From the NCBI RefSeq assembly GCF_056712565.1, contig NZ_CM160072.1: a stretch of 64,000 nt of DNA. One strand, 5' to 3'. A model generated the notes under the pieces. It saw only the letters and a list, made by a program, of their open reading frames with translations. It searched no databases and was not told the DNA's origin. Of the stretch, positions 2,608-57,390 are shown one piece after another; the stretch's first letter is position 1, and each line of letters begins with the position of its first letter. The translations under genes were made by a program, and so were the position numbers.

Positions 2608-3906
2608 ATGACACTCACGCTCAATAGACAACTTCTCTCCTCACGCCAGATTCTGGTGGCCTTTAGCGGCGGCCTTGATTCTACTGTCTTACTGCATCAA
2701 CTGGTGCAGTGGCGGACGGAAAATCCGGGCGTCACTCTGCGCGCTATCCATGTGCATCACGGTTTAAGCGCCAATGCTGATGCCTGGGTGAAACATTGTG
2801 AAAACATCTGCCAACAGTGGCAGGTGCCGCTGGTGGTCGAACGTGTGCAGCTTGCGCAAGAGGGGCTAGGTATTGAGGCTCAGGCTCGGCAGGCGCGTTA
2901 TCAGGCATTTGCCCGCACCTTGTTGCCCGGTGAAGTGCTGGTTACAGCGCAACATCTCGACGATCAATGTGAAACCTTTCTGCTGGCGCTAAAACGCGGT
3001 AGCGGCCCTGCCGGGCTTTCGGCTATGGCGGAAGTTTCGGAGTTTGCCGGAACACAGCTTATCCGCCCGTTGCTTGCCCGCACGCGGGGGGAACTGGTGC
3101 AGTGGGCGTTGGCGCATGGTTTACGCTGGATTGAAGACGAAAGTAATCAGGATGATAGCTACGATCGTAACTTTCTGCGCCTGCGCGTAGTGCCGTTATT
3201 GCAGCAGCGTTGGCCGCATTTTGCCGAAGCAACAGCCCGCAGCGCCGCACTTTGCGCTGAACAAGAGAGCCTGTTAGATGAACTGCTGGCGGATGATTTA
3301 GCGCACTGTCAAACTCCGCAGGGGACGCTGCAGATTGCGCCAATGCTGGCGATGAGTGATGCCCGTCGCGCGGCGATTATCCGCCGCTGGCTGGCAGGGC
3401 AGAATGCACCGATGCCTTCCCGCGACGCGTTGGTGAGGATCTGGCAGGAAGTGGCGCTGGCGCGGGAAGATGCCTCCCCCTGTTTACGTTTGGGTGCGTT
3501 TGAAATCCGCCGCTATCAATCGCAACTGTGGTGGATTAAATTCGTCACTGGGCAAAGCGAAACCATTGTGCCGTGGCAGACGTGGCTACAACCGCTGGAA
3601 TTACCGGCGGGGCTGGGAAGTGTACAGCTTACTGCGGGAGGCGATATTCGCCCTCCGCGTGCAGACGAAGCGGTCAGCGTGCGTTTCAAAGCGCCAGGAC
3701 TGCTGCATATTGTCGGGCGCAACGGCGGACGTAAGCTGAAGAAAATCTGGCAAGAGTTAGGCGTTCCGCCGTGGCTACGTGACACCACGCCACTGCTGTT
3801 TTATGGCGAAACGCTGATTGCGGCGGCAGGGGTATTTGTGACGCAAGAAGGTGTGGCTGTAGGTGAGAATGGCGTCAGTTTTGTCTGGAAGAAAACGCTT
3901 AGTTAA
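2608..3906 (+). CDS. tilS: tRNA(Ile)-lysidine synthetase
   Basis: 432-aa ORF with N-terminal PP-loop motif (SGGLDS) typical of TilS/MesJ; position after ldcC-yaeR. Confidence 0.9.
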
Positions 3907-3912
3907 GTGAAA

Positions 3913-3947
3913 GCCGGATAAGACGCAACAAACGTCGCATCCGGCGA
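3913..3947. terminator. Bidirectional hairpin between convergent tilS and rof
   Basis: GCCGGAT...ATCCGGC inverted repeat immediately after the tilS stop and downstream of rof on the other strand. Confidence 0.4.
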
Positions 3948-3953
3948 AGTCAA

Positions 3954-4214
3954 TCAGGACTCGCTCACCACCACCGTACCGATTTCCGGGTGGCTAAAGC
4001 TGGTAATTTTATCCAGACGCAGCTCGCGGGTTGCACCAGCGGCTTCGACGACCAGATATTCCACATTTTTGCGGGAGACTAAATCGCTGGCCTTCGCCTG
4101 CAATTTTTCGCCATCTTTCAGCTCAAGTGTCAGCATTAAATGATGCTGGCAGGCGAGCTCAAGATTATCGTAATCATCACAATTGATTGGTTGATACGTA
4201 TCATTTATTGACAT
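3954..4214 (-). CDS. rof: Rho-specific inhibitor of transcription termination Rof (YaeO)
   Basis: 86-aa [28 protein letters not shown]..., recognised as Rof. Confidence 0.85.
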
Positions 4215-13870: not shown

Positions 13871-14000
13871 TTATCAGACAATCTGTGTGGGCACTCGAAG
13901 ATACGGATTCTTAACGTCGCAAGACGAAAAATGAATACCAAGTCTCAGGAGTGAACACGTAATTCATTACGAAGTTTAATTCTTTGAGCATCAAACTTTT

Positions 14001-15542
<1,542 letters not shown>

Positions 15543-15610
15543 CCTTAAAGAAGCGTACTTTGAAGTGCTCACACAGATTGTCTGATGAAAATGAGCAGTA
15601 AAACCTCTAC

Positions 15611-15687
<77 letters not shown>

Positions 15688-15729
15688 AATTTGCACCGCA
15701 AATTTGAAGAGGTTTTAACTACATGTTAT

Positions 15730-15805
15730 GGGGCTATAGCTCAGCTGGGAGAGCGCCTGCTTTGCACGCAGGAGGTCTGCGGTTCGATCCCGCATAGCTC
15801 CACCA
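15730..15805 (+). tRNA. alaV: tRNA-Ala (TGC anticodon)
   Basis: GGGGCTATAGCTCAGCTGGGAGAGC...CTCCACCA cloverleaf in the 16S-23S spacer. Confidence 0.95.
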
Positions 15806-15979
15806 TCTCTGTAGTGATTAAATAAAAAATACTTCAGAGTGTACCTGCAAAGGTTCACTGCGAAGTTTTGCTCTTTAAAAATCTGGATCAAGCTGAAAAT
15901 TGAAACACTGAACAATGAAAGTTGTTCGTGAGTCTCTCAAATTTTCGCAACTCTGAAGTGAAACATCTTCGGGTTGTGA

Positions 15980-18883
<2,904 letters not shown>

Positions 18884-18980
18884 ACAACGCCGAAGCTGTT
18901 TTGGCGGATGAGAGAAGATTTTCAGCCTGATACAGATTAAATCGACAGGTCAGAACAGGACGTGTTGATAAAACAGAATT

Positions 18981-19100
18981 TGCCTGGCGGCCGTAGCGCG
19001 GTGGTCCCACCTGACCCCATGCCGAACTCAGAAGTGAAACGCCGTAGCGCCGATGGTAGTGTGGGGTCTCCCCATGCGAGAGTAGGGAACTGCCAGGCAT
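18981..19100 (+). rRNA. rrfH: 5S ribosomal RNA
   Basis: TGCCTGGCGGCCGTAGCGCGGTGG...GGGAACTGCCAGGCAT, 120 nt. Confidence 0.95.
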
Positions 19101-22223: not shown

Positions 22224-22994
22224 ATGACAACACAATCCCACCATGACCACGTAGAAAAGCAGTTTAGCTCTCAAGCCAGCGAATATCTGACCAGTACCGT
22301 ACATGCATCCGGACGAGATTTACAGCGCCTGGCGGTGCGTCTGGCTGATTATCCTGATGCAAGTGTACTTGATATGGGCTGCGGAGCAGGGCATGCCAGC
22401 TTTGTTGCTGCGCAAAACGTGAGCGCGGTGGTAGCGTATGACTTATCTGCCCAAATGCTGGATGTCGTGGCACAAGCTGCCGAAGCCCGGCAACTGAAAA
22501 ATATCACCACCCGCCAGGGTTATGCCGAAAGTCTGCCATTTGCCGATAACGCATTTGATATTGTTATCAGCCGTTATTCTGCCCATCACTGGCATGATGT
22601 TGGTGCAGCACTGCGTGAAGTGAACCGGATATTGAAACCTGGCGGTAGGCTGATTGTGATGGACGTAATGTCTCCGGGCCACCCAGTGCGCGACATCTGG
22701 TTACAGACGGTAGAAGCATTACGCGATACCTCTCACGTACGAAACTACGCCAGCGGTGAGTGGTTGAGGTTAATCAATGAAGCCAATCTGATAGTTGATA
22801 ATTTAATTACAGATAAGTTACCGCTGGAATTTTCTTCATGGGTCGCGAGAATGCGTACGCCAGAAGCGTTAGTAGACGCTATTCGCATTTACCAACAGAG
22901 CGCATCGACAGAGGTGAAAACGTATTTTGCCTTGCAGAATGATGGCTCTTTCACCAGTGATATCATCATGGTAGAAGCACATAAAGCAGCATAA
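22224..22994 (+). CDS. yafE: Class I SAM-dependent methyltransferase YafE
   Basis: 256-aa ORF with SAM-binding motif (VLDMGCGAGH), preceded by AAAGGA RBS. Confidence 0.8.
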   Translation: MTTQSHHDHVEKQFSSQASEYLTSTVHASGRDLQRLAVRLADYPDASVLDMGCGAGHASFVAAQNVSAVVAYDLSAQMLDVVAQAAEARQLKNITTRQGYAESLPFADNAFDIVISRYSAHHWHDVGAALREVNRILKPGGRLIVMDVMSPGHPVRDIWLQTVEALRDTSHVRNYASGEWLRLINEANLIVDNLITDKLPLEFSSWVARMRTPEALVDAIRIYQQSASTEVKTYFALQNDGSFTSDIIMVEAHKAA

Positions 22995-27242: not shown

Positions 27243-27374
27243 ATACCTGTAAAAGGCGCTAAAAATAGCGACTTGGGCGATTTTTGCAGCAAACGATTCA
27301 AAAGATGAGAAAAACCGTTGACGAAGGGTGAGGCAATCCGTAATATTCGCCTCGTTCCCAACGGAACACAACGC

Positions 27375-27451
27375 GGAGCGGTAGTTCAGTCGGTTAGAAT
27401 ACCTGCCTGTCACGCAGGGGGTCGCGGGTTCGAGTCCCGTCCGTTCCGCCA
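27375..27451 (+). tRNA. aspV: tRNA-Asp (GTC anticodon); island-associated tRNA locus
   Basis: Exact repeat of the aspU sequence; immediately followed by an AT-rich region and the accessory island. Confidence 0.95.
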
Positions 27452-48507: not shown

Positions 48508-49212
48508 AAAAATGTTCCCGTTCAGGCCATGAGCACAGCATTTTCGTACTGCATACAAATACCGACAATACCGTTTCAGTGGCAGTTAGATAATGTAACC
48601 TTCCTTCTGTTGTGATCGGTATTCTACTCATGAAATAAAACATTAAAAGAACTATTTATATTTTTGAAAGAGATGTATCCTTCATTATTAATACATAAGA
48701 GTTAAATCAATTTGGTATTTATAGACTTAGTGAATATGATTTTACGGCTAATAAAGTTACATAATGCATTGATTTATATGTGTTTATTAAGTTGATTAAT
48801 AAGTTTTATGTATGGTTTTATAAATAAATTAATTAATTGCTAGAAATACATCATAAGAAATTCCTTTAAGGAATATCTTAATTGCGTGCCGGAACGATTG
48901 TGAAGTAAGTGTTGTAATGATTGATTTTTGAAGAAATTGTAGGTTTTTATGGGGGTAAGGATACGTTATGGATAATTCTACTGTTGATGTTGATATATTT
49001 TTAGCTTATGTAATCGTGTTCTGAAATTGACTAAAAATATATTTAAACACCATAAAAGAGTTTTTCGGTAGGTGCTAATTACGTGTGCCTGTAACTCGAA
49101 TAAAGAAAAGGGTGTGGTTCCTGATGTGAGCCGCATCACACTCTAACCTGTCGGGGATTAACGACGGGTTGTTCGTAAAACAGCAGTTGATAATTTCACA
49201 AGGAGTTCATAA
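48508..49212. promoter_or_regulatory. AT-rich divergent control region between tssB (minus) and hcp (plus)
   Basis: ~700 bp of strongly AT-rich non-coding DNA between the two divergent T6SS transcription units. Confidence 0.5.
49125..49140. promoter_or_regulatory. Candidate CRP-type binding site upstream of hcp
   Basis: TGTGA-GCCGCA-TCACA: both pentameric half-sites with 6-bp spacer, centred ~80 bp upstream of the hcp ATG. Confidence 0.3.
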
Positions 49213-49731
49213 ATGCCAACCCCATGTTACATTTCAATTACAGGTCAGACCCAGGGGAACATCACTGCCGGTGCTTTCACCGCAGATTCTGTCGGCAATA
49301 TCTACGTGCAGGGACACGAAGATGAAATGCTGGTGCAGGAGTTTCTGCATAACGTTACTGTTCCAACCGATCCGCAGTCTGGTCAGCCTTCCGGGCAGCG
49401 TGCTCACAAACCGTTCATTTTCACCGTGGCGCTGAACAAAGCCGTTCCGCTGCTGTACAACGCGCTGGCCTCCGGTGAAATGCTGCCGAAAGTGGAGCTG
49501 CACTGGTGGCGTACCTCTGTTGAAGGCAAGCAGGAGCACTACTTCACCACACGTCTTACTGACGCGACGATTGTGGACATGAACCTGCATATGCCGCACT
49601 GCCAGGACCCTGCACAGCGTGAGTTTACGCAATTGCTCGCAGTATCACTGGCCTACCGTAAGGTTGAGTGGGAGCACATCAAATCCGGTACTTCTGGTGC
49701 CGATGACTGGCGTGCACCGCTGGAAGCATAA
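49213..49731 (+). CDS. hcp: T6SS tube protein Hcp (TssD)
   Basis: 172-aa ORF, Hcp-like, preceded by AAGGAG RBS. Confidence 0.9.
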   Translation: MPTPCYISITGQTQGNITAGAFTADSVGNIYVQGHEDEMLVQEFLHNVTVPTDPQSGQPSGQRAHKPFIFTVALNKAVPLLYNALASGEMLPKVELHWWRTSVEGKQEHYFTTRLTDATIVDMNLHMPHCQDPAQREFTQLLAVSLAYRKVEWEHIKSGTSGADDWRAPLEA

Positions 49732-49740
49732 ATCTGAGTC

Positions 49741-49777
49741 AACAACATCCTGCCTCCGTGCAGGATGTTGTTTTTGT
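49741..49777 (+). terminator. Intrinsic terminator/attenuator between hcp and vgrG
   Basis: AACAACATCCTGC-CTCCGT-GCAGGATGTTGTT perfect 13-bp stem followed by TTTTGT. Confidence 0.7.
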
Positions 49778-49951
49778 ACGTGTAAAAAATGAGTGTCAGT
49801 AAGGAGTTACGCTTTCATGAGGGAGATGGTGGATGCCGGAAACCCGGGCGGTAGCGTACCTGAAAATGTAAAGATGAGTGTAACGCTGCACTGGCACCCT
49901 TTGCTGCATGGTGGGAATCATTTGGTCCGTGAATGAATCAGGGAGGTCATT

Positions 49952-51934
49952 ATGTCCTTAAAAGGTCTTCGCTTTACGCTGGAGGTTGACGGCCAGGAGC
50001 CGGACACCTTTGCAGTGGTGAATTTCCGGTTAATCCAGAACCAGTCTTATCCGTTTGTGATGAGTGTGGATGTCGCCAGCGATTCTTTTATGCAGACGGC
50101 GGAGATGCTGCTGGAGAAGAACGCAACGCTGACTATCTGGCAGGGTGTCATCCCGCTGCGTTATGTCACCGGCGTGGTGGCGGGCTTTGGCATGCAGGAG
50201 AACAACGGCTGGCAGATGCGTTATCACCTGCGTATTGAGCCGCCGTTATGGCGGTGCGGGCTGCGGCGGAACTTCCGTATCTTCCAGCAGCAGGATATCC
50301 GGACGATATCGGCCACATTACTGAACGAGAACGGCGTCACAGAGTGGACGCCGCTGTTTTATGAGGACCATCCGGCGCGGGAGTTCTGTGTGCAGTACGG
50401 GGAGTCGGACCTGGCGTTTCTGGCGCGGCTGTGGGCGGAGGAGGGGATTTTCTTCTTTGAGCGGTTTGCGGCGGACAGTCCGGAGCAGAAGCTGACGCTG
50501 TGCGACGATGTGGCGGGGCTGTCACAGGCGGGGGAGCTTCCGTTTAACCCGGACACATCGGCAGGAGCGGAGACGGAGTGTGTCAGTATGTTCCGTTATG
50601 AGGCGCATGTCCGCCCGTCATCGGTGCAGAGCCAGGATTACACGTTTAAGGTGCCGGACTGGCCGGGGATGTATGAGCAGCAGGGTGAGAGCCTGAACGG
50701 ACAGCTTGAACAGTATGAAATATTTGATTATCCGGGAAGGTACAAGGATGAACAGCACGGCAAGGATTTCACGCTGTACCGGATGGAGAGCCTGCGCAGT
50801 GATGCGGAAAAGGCCACAGGGCAGAGTAATTCGCCGAAGCTGTGGCCGGGGACGTGGTTTACGCTGACGGGGCATCCGCAGAAGATGCTGAACCGTGAAT
50901 GGCAGGTGGTACAGAGCATTCTGTCAGGAGACCAGCCGCAGGCGCTTCACGGCAGCCAGGGGAGAGGAACCACGCTGGGAAATCAGTTAGAGGTGATACC
51001 GGCGGACCGGACGTGGCGTCCACGGCTGCAAAGCAAACCGAAGGTGGACGGGCCACAGAGCGCCATTGTCACCGGGCCTGCGGGAGAGGAAATCTTCTGT
51101 GATGAACATGGCCGGGTACGGGTGAAGTTTCACTGGGACCGTTATCACGGGATGACGGAGGAGAGTTCGTGCTGGGTGCGTGTGTCGCAGGCGTGGGCGG
51201 GGCCGGGATTTGGTAATCTGGCGATACCGCGGGTGGGCCAGGAGGTGATTGTTGATTTTCTGAACGGGGACCCGGACCAGCCGCTGGTCATGGGCCGGAC
51301 GTACCATGAGGACAACCGTTCGCCGGGGAGCCTGCCGGGGACGAAGACGCAGATGACGATACGGTCGAAGACCTATAAAGGAAGCGGCTTTAATGAACTG
51401 CGGTTTGAAGACGCCACGGGCGGTGAACAGGTCTATATCCACGCGCAGAAGAACATGGATACGGAGGTGCTGAATAATCGGACGACGGATGTGAAGGCTG
51501 ACCACACGGAGACCATTGGTAACGACCAGAAGATAACGGTGGGGTTGGGCCAGACGGTGAATGTGGGGAGCAAAAAGGAAGGTGGTCATGACCAGAAAGT
51601 GACGGTAGCGAACGATCAGCATCTCACGATAAAAAATGACCGGCACAAGGTTGTAAATAACAACCAGACAAGCAAGGTGACGGGAACTGATACCGAAGAA
51701 GTCGTCAAAAAACAGAGTATTAAAATAGGTGATAATTACGAACTGAAAGTTGAGCATGGTACAAATATCATATCTGGGGACAGTATTGAGCTAATTTGTG
51801 GGCAGGGAGAGAGCGGGACTTGTTCCATAAAACTGGAGAAAACAGGAAAGATAATAATACGGGGGACGGAGTTTCTATTTGAGGCTACCGGTCCTGTAGA
51901 TATTAAAGGAAAAGATATTCATCTGAACGGATAG
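49952..51934 (+). CDS. vgrG: T6SS spike protein VgrG (TssI)
   Basis: 660-aa ORF with gp27/gp5-like core; no long C-terminal effector extension; GGGAGG RBS. Confidence 0.9.
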   Translation: MSLKGLRFTLEVDGQEPDTFAVVNFRLIQNQSYPFVMSVDVASDSFMQTAEMLLEKNATLTIWQGVIPLRYVTGVVAGFGMQENNGWQMRYHLRIEPPLWRCGLRRNFRIFQQQDIRTISATLLNENGVTEWTPLFYEDHPAREFCVQYGESDLAFLARLWAEEGIFFFERFAADSPEQKLTLCDDVAGLSQAGELPFNPDTSAGAETECVSMFRYEAHVRPSSVQSQDYTFKVPDWPGMYEQQGESLNGQLEQYEIFDYPGRYKDEQHGKDFTLYRMESLRSDAEKATGQSNSPKLWPGTWFTLTGHPQKMLNREWQVVQSILSGDQPQALHGSQGRGTTLGNQLEVIPADRTWRPRLQSKPKVDGPQSAIVTGPAGEEIFCDEHGRVRVKFHWDRYHGMTEESSCWVRVSQAWAGPGFGNLAIPRVGQEVIVDFLNGDPDQPLVMGRTYHEDNRSPGSLPGTKTQMTIRSKTYKGSGFNELRFEDATGGEQVYIHAQKNMDTEVLNNRTTDVKADHTETIGNDQKITVGLGQTVNVGSKKEGGHDQKVTVANDQHLTIKNDRHKVVNNNQTSKVTGTDTEEVVKKQSIKIGDNYELKVEHGTNIISGDSIELICGQGESGTCSIKLEKTGKIIIRGTEFLFEATGPVDIKGKDIHLNG

Positions 51935-52040: not shown

Positions 52041-53087
52041 ATGATAGAAATGAAAAATAACACGCCATTTCCTTTGTTGTCATTTGAAAAATATGGTCGT
52101 TATGGTCTTTTGTTTGATGTTATTGCTATTAAAATGTCATTGCGAATTAAAAATGGATTTTATGCTGATCTTGCTGAGTTTCAAAAAGAATTGTCCATGT
52201 CTGATGAATACTATGGGGAGTCTGAAACAAGTAGTCTAAAATCTGAAACAGACTTAGTTCTTTGTAAAAGAAATACAGATATTCACGTGACAGGTAGTGC
52301 TCATGCCCCTTCAGGGGATAAGTCTCAGTGGAAGGCTTGTGTGAGGGTTAATAGTTTTTCTAAAGAACTGAGTTTATCTGGTGTCCGCTACTTACAATAT
52401 GAGCGAAATCGTTGGCAGATGAGCTTACCAGATAAAATTATTAATGTTCCTCTACGCTATGAGCTTGCTTACGGTGGTATTTGGCAACCAGATGGTATGG
52501 AGAAATTGGTTTTTTCAGCAAACCCTGTAGGTTGTGGATATTATCCTGATATTTCTCAACTTAATACAAGTTGTCAATATAAACTCCCACAAATAACCAG
52601 CTCTGCTTTGTCAGAAAACGCTACCATTTTTAATGGGGAATCTGACTTTTTTCAAGGTGTTGGCCCTGTATCTCGATGGTGGAAAAGTCGCCTCCAGTAT
52701 GCAGGAACCTACAATGAAGTATGGCGTGAAAAGCGCTATCCCTATTTGCCGGATGATTTTGATGAGCGGTTCTACAATAGTGCTCATCCGGATATGATAT
52801 ACACGGGGTTTCTCTCTGGCGATGAAAACATCTCTCTTGAAGGTTTTTTTAAATTTGAACAGGTTGTTAAGACAAAATTGCCAGGTATACGACCTGTACT
52901 TATATTAAAAACCAAGCATAATACATCACATATGTTCTTACCTGTTGCGGATACAATGGTTATCGATTTAAGTCGACAGGAAATATACCTTACCTGGAGA
53001 TTAACAATACCTGATTTTTTTGGAATGAAAGAAGGAGTGCTGAGTTGTATTATTCCTGAATGTATAGGGAAAAAATATTATGGGTAA
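52041..53087 (+). CDS. Putative DUF2169-family T6SS adaptor protein
   Basis: 348-aa low-GC ORF directly between vgrG and a DUF4150/PAAR-like effector, the canonical adaptor position; assignment by context and size. Confidence 0.55.
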   Translation: MIEMKNNTPFPLLSFEKYGRYGLLFDVIAIKMSLRIKNGFYADLAEFQKELSMSDEYYGESETSSLKSETDLVLCKRNTDIHVTGSAHAPSGDKSQWKACVRVNSFSKELSLSGVRYLQYERNRWQMSLPDKIINVPLRYELAYGGIWQPDGMEKLVFSANPVGCGYYPDISQLNTSCQYKLPQITSSALSENATIFNGESDFFQGVGPVSRWWKSRLQYAGTYNEVWREKRYPYLPDDFDERFYNSAHPDMIYTGFLSGDENISLEGFFKFEQVVKTKLPGIRPVLILKTKHNTSHMFLPVADTMVIDLSRQEIYLTWRLTIPDFFGMKEGVLSCIIPECIGKKYYG

Positions 53088-54519
53088 CTATCATATCGGG
53101 GATGGTGAATGTAGATTTAGAGTCGTGTGTTCTTCACCAGATGTATGTGAAGTAGGAGGTTACAAGGTTCCTTTTGACAGTTACCAGACTTTAGATAGTG
53201 AAAGACAGTACAGTTCAACGGTATGGGCGCGTGGATGCAGAGCTTTAAATGTTGGTTCAGTGATTGCTGGAACTCAAAGTAATGCCGGTAAAGGTGTCAT
53301 ATCCGGTACATCTCAAGGAACGGGTGACTGTGTTATTTTAACGGGAAGTCCGACTGTAACAATAGAAGGGAAACCTGTTGCTTATCATGGTTCAGTTGTT
53401 GGGATTAATAACCACAACTGCCTTGGTAAATTGTATACCAAAATAAAATCACCAATGATTTCTGTCATTGATAGAACTTTTAATTATGAAAGGACTGCTG
53501 AAGTAATACACGATTTACTGCTTCTGAAGGATCTCCTCTCTGTTGGTAATATTTTTGACGGAGATATTTCACCTGAGGTTAAAAATGATTTATTTCAAAT
53601 AAAAGATCCTGACCAATCATGGGGGGAGTTTTTTTCAATAAAGAATATCAGAGAATCTCTCAGGAATGGTATTGAAGGAGATAAATCTCAGATCAGAGAA
53701 TGGTTTGGAGAGAACACACTTACTCAAATGGGGAATGGAGCAATCACCACTTTACATGGTGTGGCGGATTTAGCCTTAGTTACATTCGATGCTCTGTTAG
53801 ATACGGCAACGGCAACGGTTGCTTGCCCGATAGGCGAAGATGGGTTATGTGAACAGGCAAATATAAATTTAAATGAAAAAGAACAGGCTTTATTTAATAT
53901 TAGTAATTCATTGATAAATGGGCAAGCATGGGATGCACTTAAAAAAATGATAATGGATACAAATAATGGTGATCAGATTGCTCTGGTGCATTTTGCCAGC
54001 TTTTTATGGGGCTTTATGATACCCGCAAAAATACCAGAAGAAAATATCTCTGGGAAAGTATTTGTAGAGCCAGTAGTTTTAGAAGGTGGTGCTGGTGGCA
54101 ATTGGACAGTATTTGATGAGGTTTTAGATTCAAATGTAATAAAGCAATTGACTTTAACAGGCTGTGGAGCGGCCTGTGGGGAAATGTTGCTTAGGGATAG
54201 GTATATTTTTGTCACGCAAAATGTAATTGGAACAGAATTAACATCTATGACGTCGCTGGCAAACAAGCTTAATAAATTTGATGTCGGCTGGGAAGGGAAT
54301 GCAGTGAGCGAATCTAGTTTATATGCCCTCAGTAATACTGGTTCATGGGGAGCAATGATGTGGGATTCTGGAAGTAAAGTAGGGCATTGGGTACTTGTTA
54401 AGGGTGTTGATGATGCTGGGAATGTGATAATATATGATCCATATCAAGGGAGTCGATATCTGATGACTGAACAGGAATTTAAGGAGGTATGGAATGGGCA
54501 TAGTGTTTACAAACCATAA
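53080..54519 (+). CDS. DUF4150/PAAR-like T6SS effector with C-terminal papain-like cysteine-peptidase toxin domain
   Basis: 479-aa ORF; N-terminus carries DUF4150 motifs (SPDVCEVGG, SGTSQGTGD, GSPTVTIEGKPVAYHGS...NNHN); C-terminal ~130 aa has a Cys/His/Asp arrangement (GCGAACGEM ... GHWVLVKG ... IYDP); start overlaps the upstream gene by 8 nt. Confidence 0.75.
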   Translation: MGNYHIGDGECRFRVVCSSPDVCEVGGYKVPFDSYQTLDSERQYSSTVWARGCRALNVGSVIAGTQSNAGKGVISGTSQGTGDCVILTGSPTVTIEGKPVAYHGSVVGINNHNCLGKLYTKIKSPMISVIDRTFNYERTAEVIHDLLLLKDLLSVGNIFDGDISPEVKNDLFQIKDPDQSWGEFFSIKNIRESLRNGIEGDKSQIREWFGENTLTQMGNGAITTLHGVADLALVTFDALLDTATATVACPIGEDGLCEQANINLNEKEQALFNISNSLINGQAWDALKKMIMDTNNGDQIALVHFASFLWGFMIPAKIPEENISGKVFVEPVVLEGGAGGNWTVFDEVLDSNVIKQLTLTGCGAACGEMLLRDRYIFVTQNVIGTELTSMTSLANKLNKFDVGWEGNAVSESSLYALSNTGSWGAMMWDSGSKVGHWVLVKGVDDAGNVIIYDPYQGSRYLMTEQEFKEVWNGHSVYKP

Positions 54520-54784
54520 TATTGATTTGTTATCGGTTGAATTTGATGAGATTACAAAAAATTGTAATTACACTTTTAGTGTAGATGGAGAGACGGCTAT
54601 CTTTACTGCTAGAATATCAATAATAAGAAATATAAAGGGAATTAAATATAGCGAAGAACTTGATAAATTTATAATGTCAATAATGCCATTGCAGCCTAAA
54701 GTATCAAAAATTTTGGGAGGTGTTACTTGGGATTGTATTTGTGGTAAGGAAGTTGGATTTCCTGTGAGATTAATTGGTAAGTGA
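54494..54784 (+). CDS. Putative cognate immunity protein
   Basis: 96-aa ORF overlapping the effector 3' end by 26 nt, same strand, low GC; no signal peptide. Confidence 0.5.
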   Translation: MGIVFTNHNIDLLSVEFDEITKNCNYTFSVDGETAIFTARISIIRNIKGIKYSEELDKFIMSIMPLQPKVSKILGGVTWDCICGKEVGFPVRLIGK

Positions 54785-55041: not shown

Positions 55042-55920
55042 ATGGAACTTAAAAAATTGATGGAACATATTTCTATTATTCCCGATTACAGGCAAGCCTG
55101 GAAAGTGGAACATAAATTGCCAGATATTCTATCTGTTAACTATTTGCGCCGTTATTTCTGGTGCATAATGCTGGGAAGATATAGAGGATTTGGGGAAACA
55201 CATCTCGATTTTTTGAAGTGATATGGTGATTTTGAAAATGGTATTCCTGTTCACGATATCATTGCCAGAGTTGTATCCTGTATCAGTCCTGCAAAATTTC
55301 ATGAGTGCTTTATTAACTGGATGCGTGACTGCCATTCCTCAGATGATAAAGATGTCATTGCAATTGATGGAAAAACGCTTCGGCACTCTTATGACAAGAG
55401 TCGCCGCAAGGGAGCGATTTATGTCATTAAAATCCGTCTTCATATTATTTGCGATGTCCCTGATGAACTTATTGATTTCACGTTTGAATGGAAAGAGCTG
55501 AAGAAATTATGCATGGCAGTCTCCTTTCGTTCAATAATAACAGAACAAAAGAAAGAGCCAGAAATGACGGACAGATATTATAGCATTTCTGCTGATTTAA
55601 CCGCAGAGAAGTTCGCCACAGCGAACCGAAATCACTGGTACGTGGAGAATAAGCTGCACTGGCATCTGGACGTGGTAATGAATAAAGACGACTGCAAAAT
55701 AAGAAGAGGAAATGCAGCAGAATTATTTTCAGGGATACGGAAGATCGCTATTAATATTTTAACGAAAGATAAGATACTCAAGGCAGGGGCAAGATGTAAG
55801 ATGTGAAAAGCAGCTGCGGACAGAGACTACCTCGCGTCAGTCCTTGCGGGGGCGGGCTTTCGTATTCTTGCTCTGCAAGGGATGATAAAAAGTGCAACTT
55901 TATTCCACGCAGCTATTTAG
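55042..55920 (+). mobile_element. Decayed ISAs1-family (H-repeat-associated) transposase remnant
   Basis: Fragments in several frames match an H-repeat/ISAs1 transposase: [26 protein letters not shown]..., [12 protein letters not shown]...[40 protein letters not shown], then C-terminal [21 protein letters not shown]...[31 protein letters not shown]; frameshifts plus an internal deletion of ~150 codons. Confidence 0.7.
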
Positions 55921-56034
55921 ACAGCGTACAGTAAACAAACGAAAGTTGTTATTTCAATGGTCAGGGCAAGAGCATGAAGTGTTTACTACACACTATGCTC
56001 TTGTCCTGGAGTCAGGTCTTGTTTGGAGGGATAA

Positions 56035-56538
56035 ATGGTAGATATTGTCGAGGCCGATAAAACGGATATTTATTTCATTCAGGAGAGTGTTTATGGCAAA
56101 ATCGGGTTGCCAGCTTTTGGTAATACAATAGGACCATCCGCACAGCAAGTTGTTAAAAAGGTATTCGCTGTCGTTAAAGAACGAGATAAGACACATGCAA
56201 AACAGAGATTATTGTTGGAATATAATGGTAACAAACTCTGGATGAATGCTATTGATGGCAGTGAAGCTATCCTACCAACAGAATTTTCTAAGCGATACGA
56301 ACTTTCATTATTCAATACTACTAATTTTGGAGAAGATCCTTTTCCTGATGTTAATTTATATAATAATATGAAATCAAGTTTTTTTGTAAGGTTTGGTGGA
56401 ACATCCCATCCCGAGGCTTGGGCTATTTATAATGCAAGTACGAAAGAGGTTAAATATATAGAAACTGCAAGAGAAATTGATAAAATATTCAGTGATTTTA
56501 ACTTGAGTGGTACATTGCCAATTCACATTGGTCAATGA
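56035..56538 (+). CDS. Hypothetical protein (orphan, low GC)
   Basis: 167-aa ORF with GGAGGG RBS, no signal peptide, AT-rich codon usage; no motif recognised. Confidence 0.5.
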   Translation: MVDIVEADKTDIYFIQESVYGKIGLPAFGNTIGPSAQQVVKKVFAVVKERDKTHAKQRLLLEYNGNKLWMNAIDGSEAILPTEFSKRYELSLFNTTNFGEDPFPDVNLYNNMKSSFFVRFGGTSHPEAWAIYNASTKEVKYIETAREIDKIFSDFNLSGTLPIHIGQ

Positions 56539-56607
56539 TTTTTTAAATTGTGTGATTAAATAATTGAACATTAATGATGATTTATAGCATCATTATTATT
56601 CTATAAC

Positions 56608-57120
56608 ATGAATAAACGGATTGAATGTGTTATGTTAAAAATGAGTTTATACGTAATAATATTGTTATTTTCCCTTCAGTTTAGTGCAGCCATTACTGGC
56701 AAGGAAAGTGAGGTTGTTTCACCATTATTAATGGATGTTAATCCTTCACTAACAATGGAAAATATTTCTGAATTATCCACATCATCGGAACCATCGCAAC
56801 AGGGGGTATTTCCTGTAATATGTACTCGACTTCATCCTGGCTCCGTAATGAAACGTCAGTTATTAACCGGCTGGGGGCCTGTTTTTATAATTGGTGATGA
56901 TCCTTTTTCTCTGCGCTGGATGAGTGAACATCTGGAGATCCTTAAATCGCTAAATGCCCTTGGTTTGGTTGTTAATGTTGAATCAGTAGAACGAATGGAG
57001 GTATTACAGCAGCGGGCTGATGGGTTATTGTTATTGCCAGTTATCTGCGATAATTTTGTGCAAGCTCTGCAATTAAATGCTTATCCGGTATTAATCACAG
57101 AGATGGAAATATCACAATGA
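56608..57120 (+). CDS. Hypothetical secreted protein (orphan, low GC)
   Basis: 170-aa ORF with predicted N-terminal signal peptide (MSLYVIILLFSLQFSAA); no motif recognised. Confidence 0.5.
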   Translation: MNKRIECVMLKMSLYVIILLFSLQFSAAITGKESEVVSPLLMDVNPSLTMENISELSTSSEPSQQGVFPVICTRLHPGSVMKRQLLTGWGPVFIIGDDPFSLRWMSEHLEILKSLNALGLVVNVESVERMEVLQQRADGLLLLPVICDNFVQALQLNAYPVLITEMEISQ

Positions 57121-57145
57121 TTAATAACATAATTACTGCTAATAA

Positions 57146-57390
57146 TATGGTGATTTTGAAAATGGTAATCCTGTTCACGACACCATAATCAGAGTTATGT
57201 CCTGTATCCGTTCAGTAAAATTTCACGAATGCTTTATTAACCGGATGCGTGAATGTCATTCTTCAGACGACATAGACGTCATTGCGATTGATGGAAAAGC
57301 ACTTCCACACTCCTGTGATAAAAGTCGTCGCAGGAGAGCGGGCTTTCGTAGTCTTCCCCGACTCTCCCCGGCCCTAAACACAACCCCCAC
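57146..57390 (+). mobile_element. Second ISAs1-family transposase fragment (yafF-like)
   Basis: Encodes [66 protein letters not shown], a diverged direct repeat (~85% identity by eye) of 55213-55410; abuts the yafV 3' end. Confidence 0.6.

What the first reader, a model, noticed from the sequence alone, without database searches (positions are those of the whole stretch)
49732..49951. Strong intrinsic terminator between hcp and vgrG suggests transcriptional attenuation
A perfect 13-bp stem hairpin followed by a T-run sits 10 nt after the hcp stop, ahead of a 170-bp spacer before vgrG. This would give high Hcp output with partial read-through into vgrG and the cargo genes, setting tube-to-spike stoichiometry.
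Basis: seen in the sequence. Interest (0 to 1): 0.3.

Follow-up and report, generated by a model that had tools for sequence, protein, structure and literature searches.

The report
Terminator and RfaH site after hcp
Between the tube gene (hcp) and the spike gene (vgrG) of this E. coli type VI secretion locus there is a real, conserved terminator hairpin, and the spacer behind it carries a conserved loading site (ops) for the anti-termination factor RfaH, so the junction is a new example of an already described kind of control rather than a novelty.

Summary
A perfect 13-bp hairpin (49741-49772, dG about -20 kcal/mol, z = -5) with a U-rich tail starts at the 10th base after the hcp stop. It is under selection as a structure. 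In 24 orthologous junctions from about ten enterobacterial genera, 8 of 13 pairs show compensatory changes (0 of 500 shuffles match). 47 of 82 related hcp genes are followed by such a hairpin, against 0.6 expected.

A ~105-nt conserved block (49793-49897) contains GGCGGTAGCGTA (49847-49858, sense strand). This is an ops element, the recruitment site of RfaH. Its core GGTAGC is invariant in 32 of 32 diverse sequences. The same 12-mer is a ChIP-validated RfaH site in E. coli CFT073.

The same order, hcp then terminator then ops then next gene, occurs in hcp-tssH junctions. There ops function was shown experimentally (EAEC) or RfaH binding was shown (CFT073).

The most likely mechanism has two steps. 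Most transcripts end after hcp. Polymerases that read through load RfaH and carry on through vgrG and the AT-rich cargo. I found no promoter-like site, no regulated antiterminator fold and no coding signal in the spacer. Termination efficiency and RfaH dependence remain untested here. This is a new member of a known kind, of modest interest.

The parts
49213..49731 (+). hcp (T6SS tube protein), 172 aa, transcribed divergently from tssB
   Evidence: ORF. RefSeq annotates it as an Hcp family T6SS effector, WP_001142963.1.
49741..49772 (+). Terminator hairpin: a 13-bp perfect stem with a 6-nt loop. The GC-rich core is the 8 bp at 49746-49753 / 49760-49767.
   Evidence: dG -20.3, z -4.97; 93.9% of cells paired and 8 of 13 pairs with compensatory changes in 24 orthologues, 0 of 500 shuffles as high.
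49768..49776 (+). U-rich tract UUGUUUUUG, which overlaps the base of the stem. The expected RNA 3' end is about 49774-49777.
   Evidence: The T columns are nearly invariant in alignment A2. The release point is inferred, not measured.
49793..49897 (+). Conserved leader block around ops: GTGTCAGTAAGGAGTTACG ... GGGAGATGGTGGATGCCGGAAAC ... ops ... CCTGAA ... TGTAACG ... ACTGGCAC
   Evidence: Alignments (32 non-redundant sequences). The flanking inverted repeats are 85% pairable but show no significant covariation.
49847..49858 (+). ops element GGCGGTAGCGTA on the non-template (sense) strand. The core bases 3-8 (CGGTAG) are intact and G12 is replaced by A.
   Evidence: GGTAGC is invariant in 32 of 32 sequences. 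The identical 12-mer is an RfaH-bound site at CFT073 c1882 (PMC9765446 Data set S2A).
49941..49946 (+). vgrG Shine-Dalgarno sequence GGGAGG, 5 nt before the ATG
   Evidence: Read directly. (G)GGAGG is conserved in most vgrG-preceding spacers.
49952..51934 (+). vgrG (spike protein), 660 aa
   Evidence: Vgr family protein, WP_000053636.1.
52041..54784 (+). AT-rich cargo downstream of vgrG: a DUF2169 protein (52041-53087), a PAAR-like-domain protein (53080-54519) and a small hypothetical protein (54494-54784)
   Evidence: Annotation. GC is 0.31-0.41 here against 0.53-0.62 in hcp and vgrG.

Best explanation
The hcp-vgrG junction is a two-part transcription valve.

(1) An intrinsic terminator directly after hcp ends a share of the transcripts that start at the hcp promoter. 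This gives a short, hairpin-capped hcp mRNA and more tube than spike message.

(2) RNA polymerases that read through reach, about 80 nt later, an ops element on the non-template strand. There they load RfaH. RfaH excludes NusG, suppresses pausing and Rho/H-NS-dependent termination, and helps ribosome recruitment. The committed polymerases can then transcribe vgrG and several kb of AT-rich, horizontally acquired cargo.

Shown here: the hairpin and its covariation, the ops sequence, its strand, its intergenic position and its conservation, and the recurrence of the same gene order in other T6SS clusters. Inferred: that termination is partial, that the polymerases reaching ops started upstream of hcp, and that RfaH acts at this site.
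For: Hairpin. dG -20.3, z -4.97. 8 of 13 pairs are compensatory in 24 orthologues, 0 of 500 shuffles as high, and slid controls give 33-61% pairing against 93.9%. Terminator-like hairpins follow 47 of 82 related hcp genes against 0.6 expected. It is the only intergenic candidate in the 31-kb locus.

ops. GGCGGTAGCGTA lies at 49847-49858 on the + strand. An ops 8-mer core sits 115-133 nt after the hcp stop in 20 loci from about ten genera, and at +332 in one more. All 21 also keep the hairpin. Positions 4-9 are invariant in 32 of 32 sequences.

Published support for function. RfaH-bound ops sites in CFT073 include GGCGGTAGCGTA (c1882, a PAAR-vgrG island) and GGCGGTAGCATA (kpsM). Bases 3-8 carry RfaH recognition, and G12C removes the pause but not recruitment (PMC5995543).

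Same architecture elsewhere. In CFT073 the hcp-tssH spacer has GGCAGACAG-GAAA-CTGTCTGCC followed by TTTTTG, then GGCGGTAGCGTGCCTGAACGC. A diverged hcp-tssH junction in STEC307 has the same layout with a different hairpin sequence. In EAEC, ops1 lies between hcp and clpV; mutating it or rfaH abolishes downstream but not upstream reporter expression (preprint 10.1101/2025.02.08.637259).

Context. The cargo is AT-rich, GC 0.30-0.44. No sigma-70-like promoter is found in the spacer. RT-PCR products span the hcp-vgrG junction in a related Proteus operon.
Against: - There are no transcript, 3'-end, TSS or RfaH-binding data for this locus.
- Terminator efficiency cannot be read from sequence. The U-tract has a G at its third position, and a rough score is about 0.
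- The window's ops has A at position 12, which should weaken the U11 pause. Most other genera have G there.
- In CFT073 RfaH-bound ops sites are described as lying in 5' leaders, and a possible tssH-proximal promoter is discussed. An unrecognised promoter between hairpin and ops, or inside hcp, is therefore not excluded, and the consensus scan is insensitive.
- The reduced T6SS-1 expression in an Erwinia amylovora rfaH mutant was judged indirect by its authors.
- The roughly 50 conserved nt upstream of ops and the flanking inverted repeats are not explained by this model.
Confidence: 0.6

Rival explanations
1. The hairpin is a near-complete stop that ends an hcp monocistron. vgrG and the cargo form a separate operon with its own promoter between the hairpin and ops, so ops sits in an ordinary 5' leader and no read-through is needed.
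For: Known RfaH targets carry ops in leaders downstream of a promoter (PMC9765446). The conserved block upstream of ops contains a -35-like TTGTCA in most genera. E. coli E94 keeps hairpin, ops, vgrG and rhs although most of hcp and its promoter region are deleted.
Against: No -10 match lies at a suitable distance, and the spacing between TTGTCA and the next conserved block varies by 2-6 nt among genera. The window itself has GTGTCA. The scan finds no promoter-like site in 49732-49951. In EAEC the hcp-clpV ops1 works within a transcript driven from the cluster promoter. RT-PCR products span the hcp-vgrG junction in Proteus.
Confidence: 0.22
2. One reading: a leaky terminator alone sets the Hcp:VgrG ratio, and the remaining spacer has no function.
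For: The hairpin is real and conserved. Some relatives keep a hairpin without ops (E. asburiae L035, Buttiauxella L034).
Against: The spacer's core is more conserved than most of the junction. GGTAGC is invariant in 32 of 32 sequences, and the 12-mer matches a validated RfaH site exactly. This conservation is unexplained if the spacer is inert.
Confidence: 0.08
3. The conserved block is a structured RNA acting independently of RfaH, such as a 5'-UTR riboregulator, an RNase III site or an sRNA. It would be built on the inverted repeats GTGTCAGT/ACTGGCAC and GTTACG/TGTAAC that bracket ops.
For: The repeats can pair in 85% of cells across 32 sequences. The MFE fold of the spacer uses them, and the whole-spacer z-score is -2.67.
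Against: There is no significant covariation: 100-216 of 500 shuffles reach the observed values. RNAalifold does not recover these stems, and its covariation term is only -0.22. Several lineages lack the right-hand repeats but keep ops (L032, L092, L107, L183). No Rfam family matches.
Confidence: 0.07
4. The spacer encodes a small protein. The window has an ORF from GTG 49793 or ATG 49817 to 49936, and PGAP annotates a 45-aa hypothetical protein across the same region in some E. coli genomes.
For: A frame through ops is open in most sequences, with a conserved ATG ('REMADAGNFGGSVPE'). WP_001297813.1 is annotated in strain E94.
Against: Variation is spread evenly over codon positions: 32, 24 and 35 non-majority cells at positions 1, 2 and 3. 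Indels of 8 and 5 nt shift or stop the frame in the window, L005 and L018, and a larger insertion introduces an early stop in L113. The conserved ATG directly abuts GGGAG and so has no usable Shine-Dalgarno spacing (read). The apparent peptide conservation simply follows the ops nucleotides.
Confidence: 0.03

Closest known systems
ops1 of the EAEC sci1 T6SS cluster (hcp-clpV intergenic region; Taillefer, Desjardins and Cascales, bioRxiv 10.1101/2025.02.08.637259)
   Same: A consensus-type ops lies in the untranslated gap directly after hcp, inside a T6SS locus, with the downstream genes depending on it. The preprint also states that the E. coli EDL933 T6SS cluster carries ops elements. The O157 orthologue of this junction has one.
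   Different: It belongs to a different T6SS cluster and Hcp family. The next gene is clpV/tssH, not vgrG and cargo. The preprint does not mention a terminator. Function is shown there and not here.
RfaH-bound ops sites of E. coli CFT073 at tssH (c3392) and c1882 (Hustmyer et al. 2022, PMC9765446)
   Same: c1882 uses exactly GGCGGTAGCGTA and leads a PAAR-vgrG effector island. The tssH site follows hcp and a terminator-like hairpin, and it shares ops plus CCTGAACGC with the O157 version of this element.
   Different: c1882 has no upstream hcp or hairpin. It lies 313 nt before its first gene, and an apparent sigma-70 ChIP peak lies upstream of the gene in the hns stpA mutant. Binding was seen only in that mutant. 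The sequence upstream of ops is unrelated in both.
JUMPstart / ops leaders of polysaccharide operons (rfaQ, wzx, wza, kpsM)
   Same: The same 12-nt ops lies on the non-template strand of an untranslated leader ahead of a long, AT-rich, horizontally acquired operon.
   Different: The 27 nt upstream of ops (cagtg..tggtagctgtNaagccagg) are absent here. This element has its own conserved flanks (GGGAGATGGCGGATGCCGGAAAC before ops, CCTGAA after). It follows a gene and a terminator rather than a promoter.
Intra-operon intrinsic terminators that set unequal expression of neighbouring genes, e.g. the rplL-rpoB attenuator of E. coli (from general knowledge, not checked here)
   Same: A hairpin plus U-tract sits between an abundant structural gene and less-needed distal genes, with partial read-through assumed.
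   Different: Here the terminator is followed by a dedicated anti-termination loading site, and read-through has not been measured.
hcp-vgrG effector operons of Proteus mirabilis (Alteri et al. 2013, PMC3764213)
   Same: Hcp is 85% identical. The layout is the same: hcp-vgrG-effectors divergent from the core T6SS operon. A hairpin plus T-run follows hcp in the P. mirabilis locus recovered here (L044). RT-PCR products span the hcp-vgrG junction in the HI4320 operon.
   Different: There is no ops downstream of hcp in the Proteus or Providencia loci, the hairpin sequence is not homologous, and it was not checked that L044 is the operon studied by RT-PCR.

Membership tests
Intrinsic (Rho-independent) terminator | A stable GC-rich stem-loop immediately followed by a U-rich tract on the transcribed strand | tested here: met
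   An 8-bp GC-rich core is extended to 13 bp, dG -20.3, followed by UUGUUUUUG. The tract is interrupted by G at its third position and overlaps the lower stem.
Intrinsic (Rho-independent) terminator | Position just downstream of a stop codon, with structure rather than sequence conserved | tested here: met
   It starts 10 nt after the hcp stop. 8 of 13 pairs are compensatory in 24 orthologues and the T-run is nearly invariant.
Intrinsic (Rho-independent) terminator | RNA 3' ends and transcript release at the U-tract | not testable with these tools
   This needs Term-seq, 3'-RACE or in vitro transcription. A rough sequence score of -4 to +2 is uninformative.
Regulated attenuator / riboswitch-type terminator | A conserved alternative (antiterminator) fold, or a ligand or leader-peptide sensor upstream that competes with the terminator | tested here: not met
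   The hairpin is kept in the MFE and centroid folds with 100 nt of upstream context. The upstream sequence is hcp coding sequence. No Rfam match was found.
ops element (RfaH recruitment site) | The 12-nt consensus GGCGGTAGnnTG with recognition bases 3-8 intact | tested here: met
   11 of 12 positions match and CGGTAG is intact. G12 is A. The identical 12-mer is RfaH-bound in CFT073. G12C retains recruitment in vitro.
ops element (RfaH recruitment site) | On the non-template strand, in untranslated RNA upstream of a long operon | tested here: met
   It lies on the + strand, in the same sense as hcp and vgrG, between the hcp stop and the vgrG ATG, 93 nt before the ATG. The overlapping small ORF shows no coding signal.
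ops element (RfaH recruitment site) | Conserved at the orthologous position in relatives | tested here: met
   21 of 83 hcp loci from about ten enterobacterial genera have it. Positions 4-9 are invariant in 32 of 32 sequences.
ops element (RfaH recruitment site) | RNAP pausing at U11, RfaH binding, and RfaH-dependent expression of downstream genes | not testable with these tools
   No data exist for this locus. Such data exist only for analogous sites.
JUMPstart 39-bp element | The conserved upstream half (cagtg..tggtagctgtNaagccagg) adjoining ops | tested here: not met
   Comparison with the rfaQ, wzx, wza and kpsM leaders of CFT073 shows that the 27 nt upstream of ops are unrelated here.
Rfam RNA families | A covariance-model match | tested here: not met
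   Only sub-threshold chance hits were found in 48500-50500 at E up to 10.
Small protein gene in the spacer | A conserved frame, an excess of third-position variation, and a usable ribosome-binding site | tested here: not met
   Variation at codon positions 1/2/3 is 32/24/35, and indels break the frame.

The most novel reading that the evidence does not exclude
The terminator-then-ops tandem directly after hcp is a dedicated, recurrent 'gate and commit' module of enterobacterial T6SS loci. It is present in at least three sequence-unrelated hairpin versions: this hcp-vgrG junction and two hcp-tssH junctions. The module would fix the tube-to-spike/cargo ratio and place effector cargo under RfaH control. 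The roughly 105-nt conserved leader, which is not a JUMPstart, would carry a further undescribed function, for example a regulator-binding site or an extended RfaH/RNAP recognition surface. That would explain why about 50 nt upstream of ops are nearly as conserved as ops itself.
Probability: 0.3. Interest if true: 0.55.

Novelty: new member of a known kind. Interest (0 to 1): 0.35.

Why it matters
Hcp is needed in far larger amounts than VgrG and effectors, and how T6SS loci achieve this is rarely addressed at the transcript level. If the model holds, effector delivery by this locus type depends on a global elongation factor (RfaH) and not only on promoter control. A version of the junction occurs in roughly half of complete E. 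coli genomes, including O157:H7, UPEC 536 and the type strain.

The model would also explain how AT-rich, swappable cargo behind vgrG escapes Rho/H-NS silencing. It gives simple handles for tuning or disabling cargo expression: the hairpin and the ops core bases. It extends the recently reported RfaH-T6SS link from hcp-clpV junctions to hcp-vgrG junctions, and it points out that those published sites also sit behind a terminator-like hairpin.

Tried and rejected
- The generic terminator scan does not list the hairpin. Its maximal 13-bp stem absorbs part of the T-run, so this is a matter of scan criteria and not evidence against the hairpin.
- Rfam at E up to 10 returned only chance sub-threshold hits.
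- RNAalifold on 32 spacer sequences gave a weak consensus (-9.2 kcal/mol, covariation term -0.22) and no long-range stems.
- An explicit test of the inverted repeats bracketing ops, plus a local GCCGG/YCGGC hairpin, gave 85% pairing but no covariation above shuffles. This is left as inconclusive.
- The small ORF was rejected on codon-position and frame evidence.
- No sigma-70 promoter-like site was found in the spacer. The -35-like TTGTCA in the conserved block has no -10 partner and sits at variable spacing.
- A sigma-54 look-alike, TGGCAC-N3-TTGC at 49892-49904, was seen by eye. Its spacing is wrong (the consensus needs N5) and it is not conserved: other genera have TGTCACAGCCGC there.
- A CsrA-type GGA hairpin at GUAAGGAGUUAC (49799-49810) was considered. 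Most genera have GGGG in that loop, so I dropped it.
- No regulated antiterminator fold was found.
- The single-window statistics for ops are not significant alone: 6 matches at up to 1 mismatch against 3.9 expected. The case for ops rests on conservation and on identity to validated sites.
- Literature searches found no paper in the held library that describes an intrinsic terminator between hcp and vgrG.

Full report
**Where the window comes from.** The window is identical to the chromosome of the E. coli type strain ATCC 11775. The finding lies in a T6SS locus next to tRNA-Asp (aspV). The genes tssB-tssC-...-tssM-vasL-hcp run on the minus strand. Divergently, hcp (49213-49731), vgrG (49952-51934), a DUF2169 gene, a PAAR-like-domain gene and a small ORF run on the plus strand.

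The hcp stop is at 49729-49731. AACAACATCCTGC (49741-53), CTCCGT and GCAGGATGTTGTT (49760-72) form a perfect 13-bp stem, followed by TTTG.
- The fold is -20.3 kcal/mol. Shuffles average -8.4 +/- 2.4 (z = -4.97), and none of 200 fold as well.
- The hairpin survives added flanking sequence on either side.
- The U-rich tract UUGUUUUUG (49768-76) overlaps the lower five pairs of the stem, which pair with an upstream A-rich run. This is why the generic scan, which demands five T after the longest stem, omits it.
- A custom scan of the whole 31-kb locus on both strands finds only this candidate and a weaker one inside vgrG.

**The hairpin is under selection as a structure.** A scan of one genome per species with the Hcp protein returned 80 loci.
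- In 24 non-identical orthologous junctions the hairpin is present with changed stem sequence. The genera are Escherichia, Citrobacter, Superficieibacter, Pseudocitrobacter, Yokenella, Buttiauxella, Atlantibacter, Lelliottia, Trabulsiella, Phytobacter and Enterobacter.
- On that alignment 93.9% of cells pair and 8 of 13 pairs show changes on both sides. None of 500 shuffles reaches any measure, and sliding the partner drops pairing to 33-61%.
- More distant relatives (Proteus, Providencia, Photobacterium, Dickeya, Aeromonas and some Halomonadaceae) have non-homologous hairpin-plus-T-run signals at the same place.
- Overall 47 of 82 loci have one within 100 nt of the hcp stop, against 0.6 expected from dinucleotide shuffles.

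A terminator after hcp is therefore a general feature of this Hcp family.

**The spacer is not empty.** Aligning the spacers showed a block of about 105 nt (window 49793-49897) that is conserved across genera while its surroundings diverge.
- A metagenome pattern scan added more variants. It returned 120 stretches, and with the earlier loci this gave 60 distinct core sequences, one of them a chance match.
- In 32 non-redundant sequences the most conserved part reads GGGAGATGGCGGATGCCGGAAAC-NNN-GGCGGTAGCGTG-CCTGAA.
- GGCGGTAGCGTG is the ops consensus, the site at which RfaH is recruited to paused RNA polymerase through the non-template strand (PMC5995543).
- In the window the element is GGCGGTAGCGTA at 49847-49858 on the sense strand, 93 nt before the vgrG ATG.
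- Positions 4-9 are invariant in 32 of 32 sequences. Position 12 is G in 26, A in 5 and C in 1.
- A single such match in 64 kb is not significant by itself. Its recurrence at +115 to +133 from the hcp stop in 20 of 83 loci, and at +332 in one more, is what counts. All 21 also keep the hairpin.
- Relatives with a tight hcp-vgrG junction (32-80 nt) mostly have neither element: five of six have neither, one (L014) has only a weak hairpin and no ops. Two further loci keep a hairpin but lack ops.

**Is the A12 variant credible?** Yes.
- In CFT073, ChIP-seq found RfaH at eight ops sites. These include GGCGGTAGCGTA upstream of c1882 (a PAAR-vgrG effector island) and GGCGGTAGCATA at kpsM (PMC9765446 Data set S2A). 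I confirmed the c1882-type sequence in Nissle.
- Mutational work assigns RfaH recognition to bases 3-8. G12C abolishes the U11 pause but not recruitment in vitro.

**The same architecture occurs where function is known.**
- In CFT073 the RfaH-bound tssH (c3392) site follows hcp. Directly after the hcp stop lies GGCAGACAG-GAAA-CTGTCTGCC-TTTTTGTTG, and about 100 nt later GGCGGTAGCGTGCCTGAACGC. That spacer occurs in about 1,290 complete E. coli genomes.
- A diverged hcp-tssH junction (STEC307) has a different hairpin, GACGGACAGG-GCAT-CCTGTCCGTC followed by a T-run, and again ops about 85 nt later.
- In EAEC, ops1 lies between hcp and clpV. Mutating ops1 or rfaH abolishes sheath assembly and expression of a reporter downstream of ops1, but not of one upstream of it (preprint).
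- That preprint notes that the EDL933 T6SS carries ops, but it does not mention any terminator.

**Mechanism proposed.** Most polymerases coming from the hcp promoter terminate at the hairpin. Those that pass it traverse about 220 nt of untranslated RNA, where they would be exposed to Rho. At ops they exchange NusG for RfaH and become processive through vgrG and the cargo. The cargo's GC content falls to 0.30-0.44, which is typical of H-NS- and Rho-silenced DNA.

Read-through is supported only indirectly:
- No promoter-like site is found in the spacer.
- The EAEC reporters behave as expected for a transcript driven from the cluster promoter.
- In a related Proteus hcp-vgrG operon, RT-PCR products span the junction, although its authors could not exclude internal promoters.

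**What remains uncertain.**
- Termination efficiency is unknown. A rough d'Aubenton-Carafa-type score computed with modern energies is -4 to +2, so 'strong' is not established.
- An unrecognised promoter is possible.
- RfaH binding at this site is untested.
- The roughly 50 conserved nt upstream of ops and the inverted repeats GTGTCAGT/ACTGGCAC and GTTACG/TGTAAC are unexplained. They are pairable (85%) but show no covariation above shuffles, and RNAalifold does not recover them.
- The element is not a JUMPstart. The 27 nt upstream of ops differ from the rfaQ, wzx, wza and kpsM leaders. Only CCGGAA upstream (also in hlyC and c4518) and CCTGAA downstream (also in tssH and kpsM) recur.

**Rejected readings.**
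- A small protein. PGAP annotates one in some genomes. However, variation is even over codon positions (32/24/35), and indels shift or stop the frame.
- A regulated attenuator. No competing fold was found.
- A known RNA family.
- A sigma-54 promoter. The spacing is wrong and the motif is not conserved.

**Verdict.** The hairpin is real and functional-looking. The junction is best described as an intrinsic terminator followed by an RfaH loading site. It is a new instance of a control that was reported for other T6SS junctions in 2022-2025. Two added observations are that those junctions share the terminator-then-ops order, and that this one has its own conserved leader.

Noticed in passing
window 22641-22652 (+): GGCGGTAGGCTG is an exact match to the ops pattern GGCGGTAGnnTG. 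It lies inside a coding gene, on the sense strand: a class I SAM-dependent methyltransferase, ORF 22224-22994. In CFT073 such coding-region sites do not bind RfaH (PMC9765446), so it is probably inert.
   Followed up: partly
L003 4065-4202 (E. coli E94); equivalent to window ~49793-49936: RefSeq/PGAP annotates a 45-aa 'hypothetical protein' (WP_001297813.1) across the ops leader in some genomes. Codon-position and frame analysis indicate that this is an annotation artefact caused by nucleotide conservation of the ops block.
   Followed up: yes
L003 (E. coli E94), whole locus: Most of the T6SS core and the 5' part of hcp are deleted. The last 108 bp of hcp, the hairpin, the ops block, vgrG and an Rhs gene are retained. 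What transcribes vgrG-rhs in such remnants is unclear.
   Followed up: no
L214 (hlyC leader) and L212 (c4518 leader) of CFT073: These two RfaH-bound leaders share an upstream motif (ttctggtNccggttgatNNgggtaaNNNccggaaR directly before ops). It is unlike the polysaccharide JUMPstart, which suggests at least two or three classes of extended ops leader.
   Followed up: partly
L207 2862-2892 (CFT073) and L215 1056-1092 (STEC307): The published RfaH-dependent hcp-tssH/clpV junctions also carry a terminator-like hairpin plus T-run between the hcp stop and ops. Neither paper I read mentions this.
   Followed up: partly
window 48600-48999: The divergent tssB/hcp promoter region is extremely AT-rich (GC 0.26). 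The only sigma-70-like + strand match upstream of hcp is at 48712-48740 (TTGGTA-17-TATGAT). This region is likely to be H-NS-bound regulatory DNA.
   Followed up: no
window 50330-50355 (+): A second, weaker hairpin plus T-run (AACGGCGTCACAGAGTGGACGCCGCT followed by GTTTTATG, -13 kcal/mol) lies inside the vgrG coding sequence. It is probably chance.
   Followed up: no
window 49892-49904 (+): TGGCACCCTTTGC resembles a sigma-54 promoter, but it has 3 rather than 5 bases between the TGGCAC and TTGC blocks, and it is not conserved in other genera.
   Followed up: yes
window 55042-57340 (+): Downstream of the cargo genes lie ISAs1 transposase fragments (one frameshifted, one partial) and an 'integrating conjugative element protein'. 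This indicates a decayed mobile insertion at the end of the effector island. No intrinsic terminator was detected at the end of the cargo operon.
   Followed up: no
window ~3941-4201, ~13988-19095, ~27372-27448: The window also contains rof (a Rho-binding antiterminator), a complete rRNA operon and the aspV tRNA that borders the T6SS island. These appear unrelated to the finding.
   Followed up: no
L017 (Buttiauxella sp. A111) ~3625-3645: In this species the ops is degenerate (CCGGGTAGCGGG: G1, G2, C3 and T11 changed, with a 2-nt deletion), while the hairpin and the flanking conserved blocks persist. This may be a natural loss-of-function variant.
   Followed up: no
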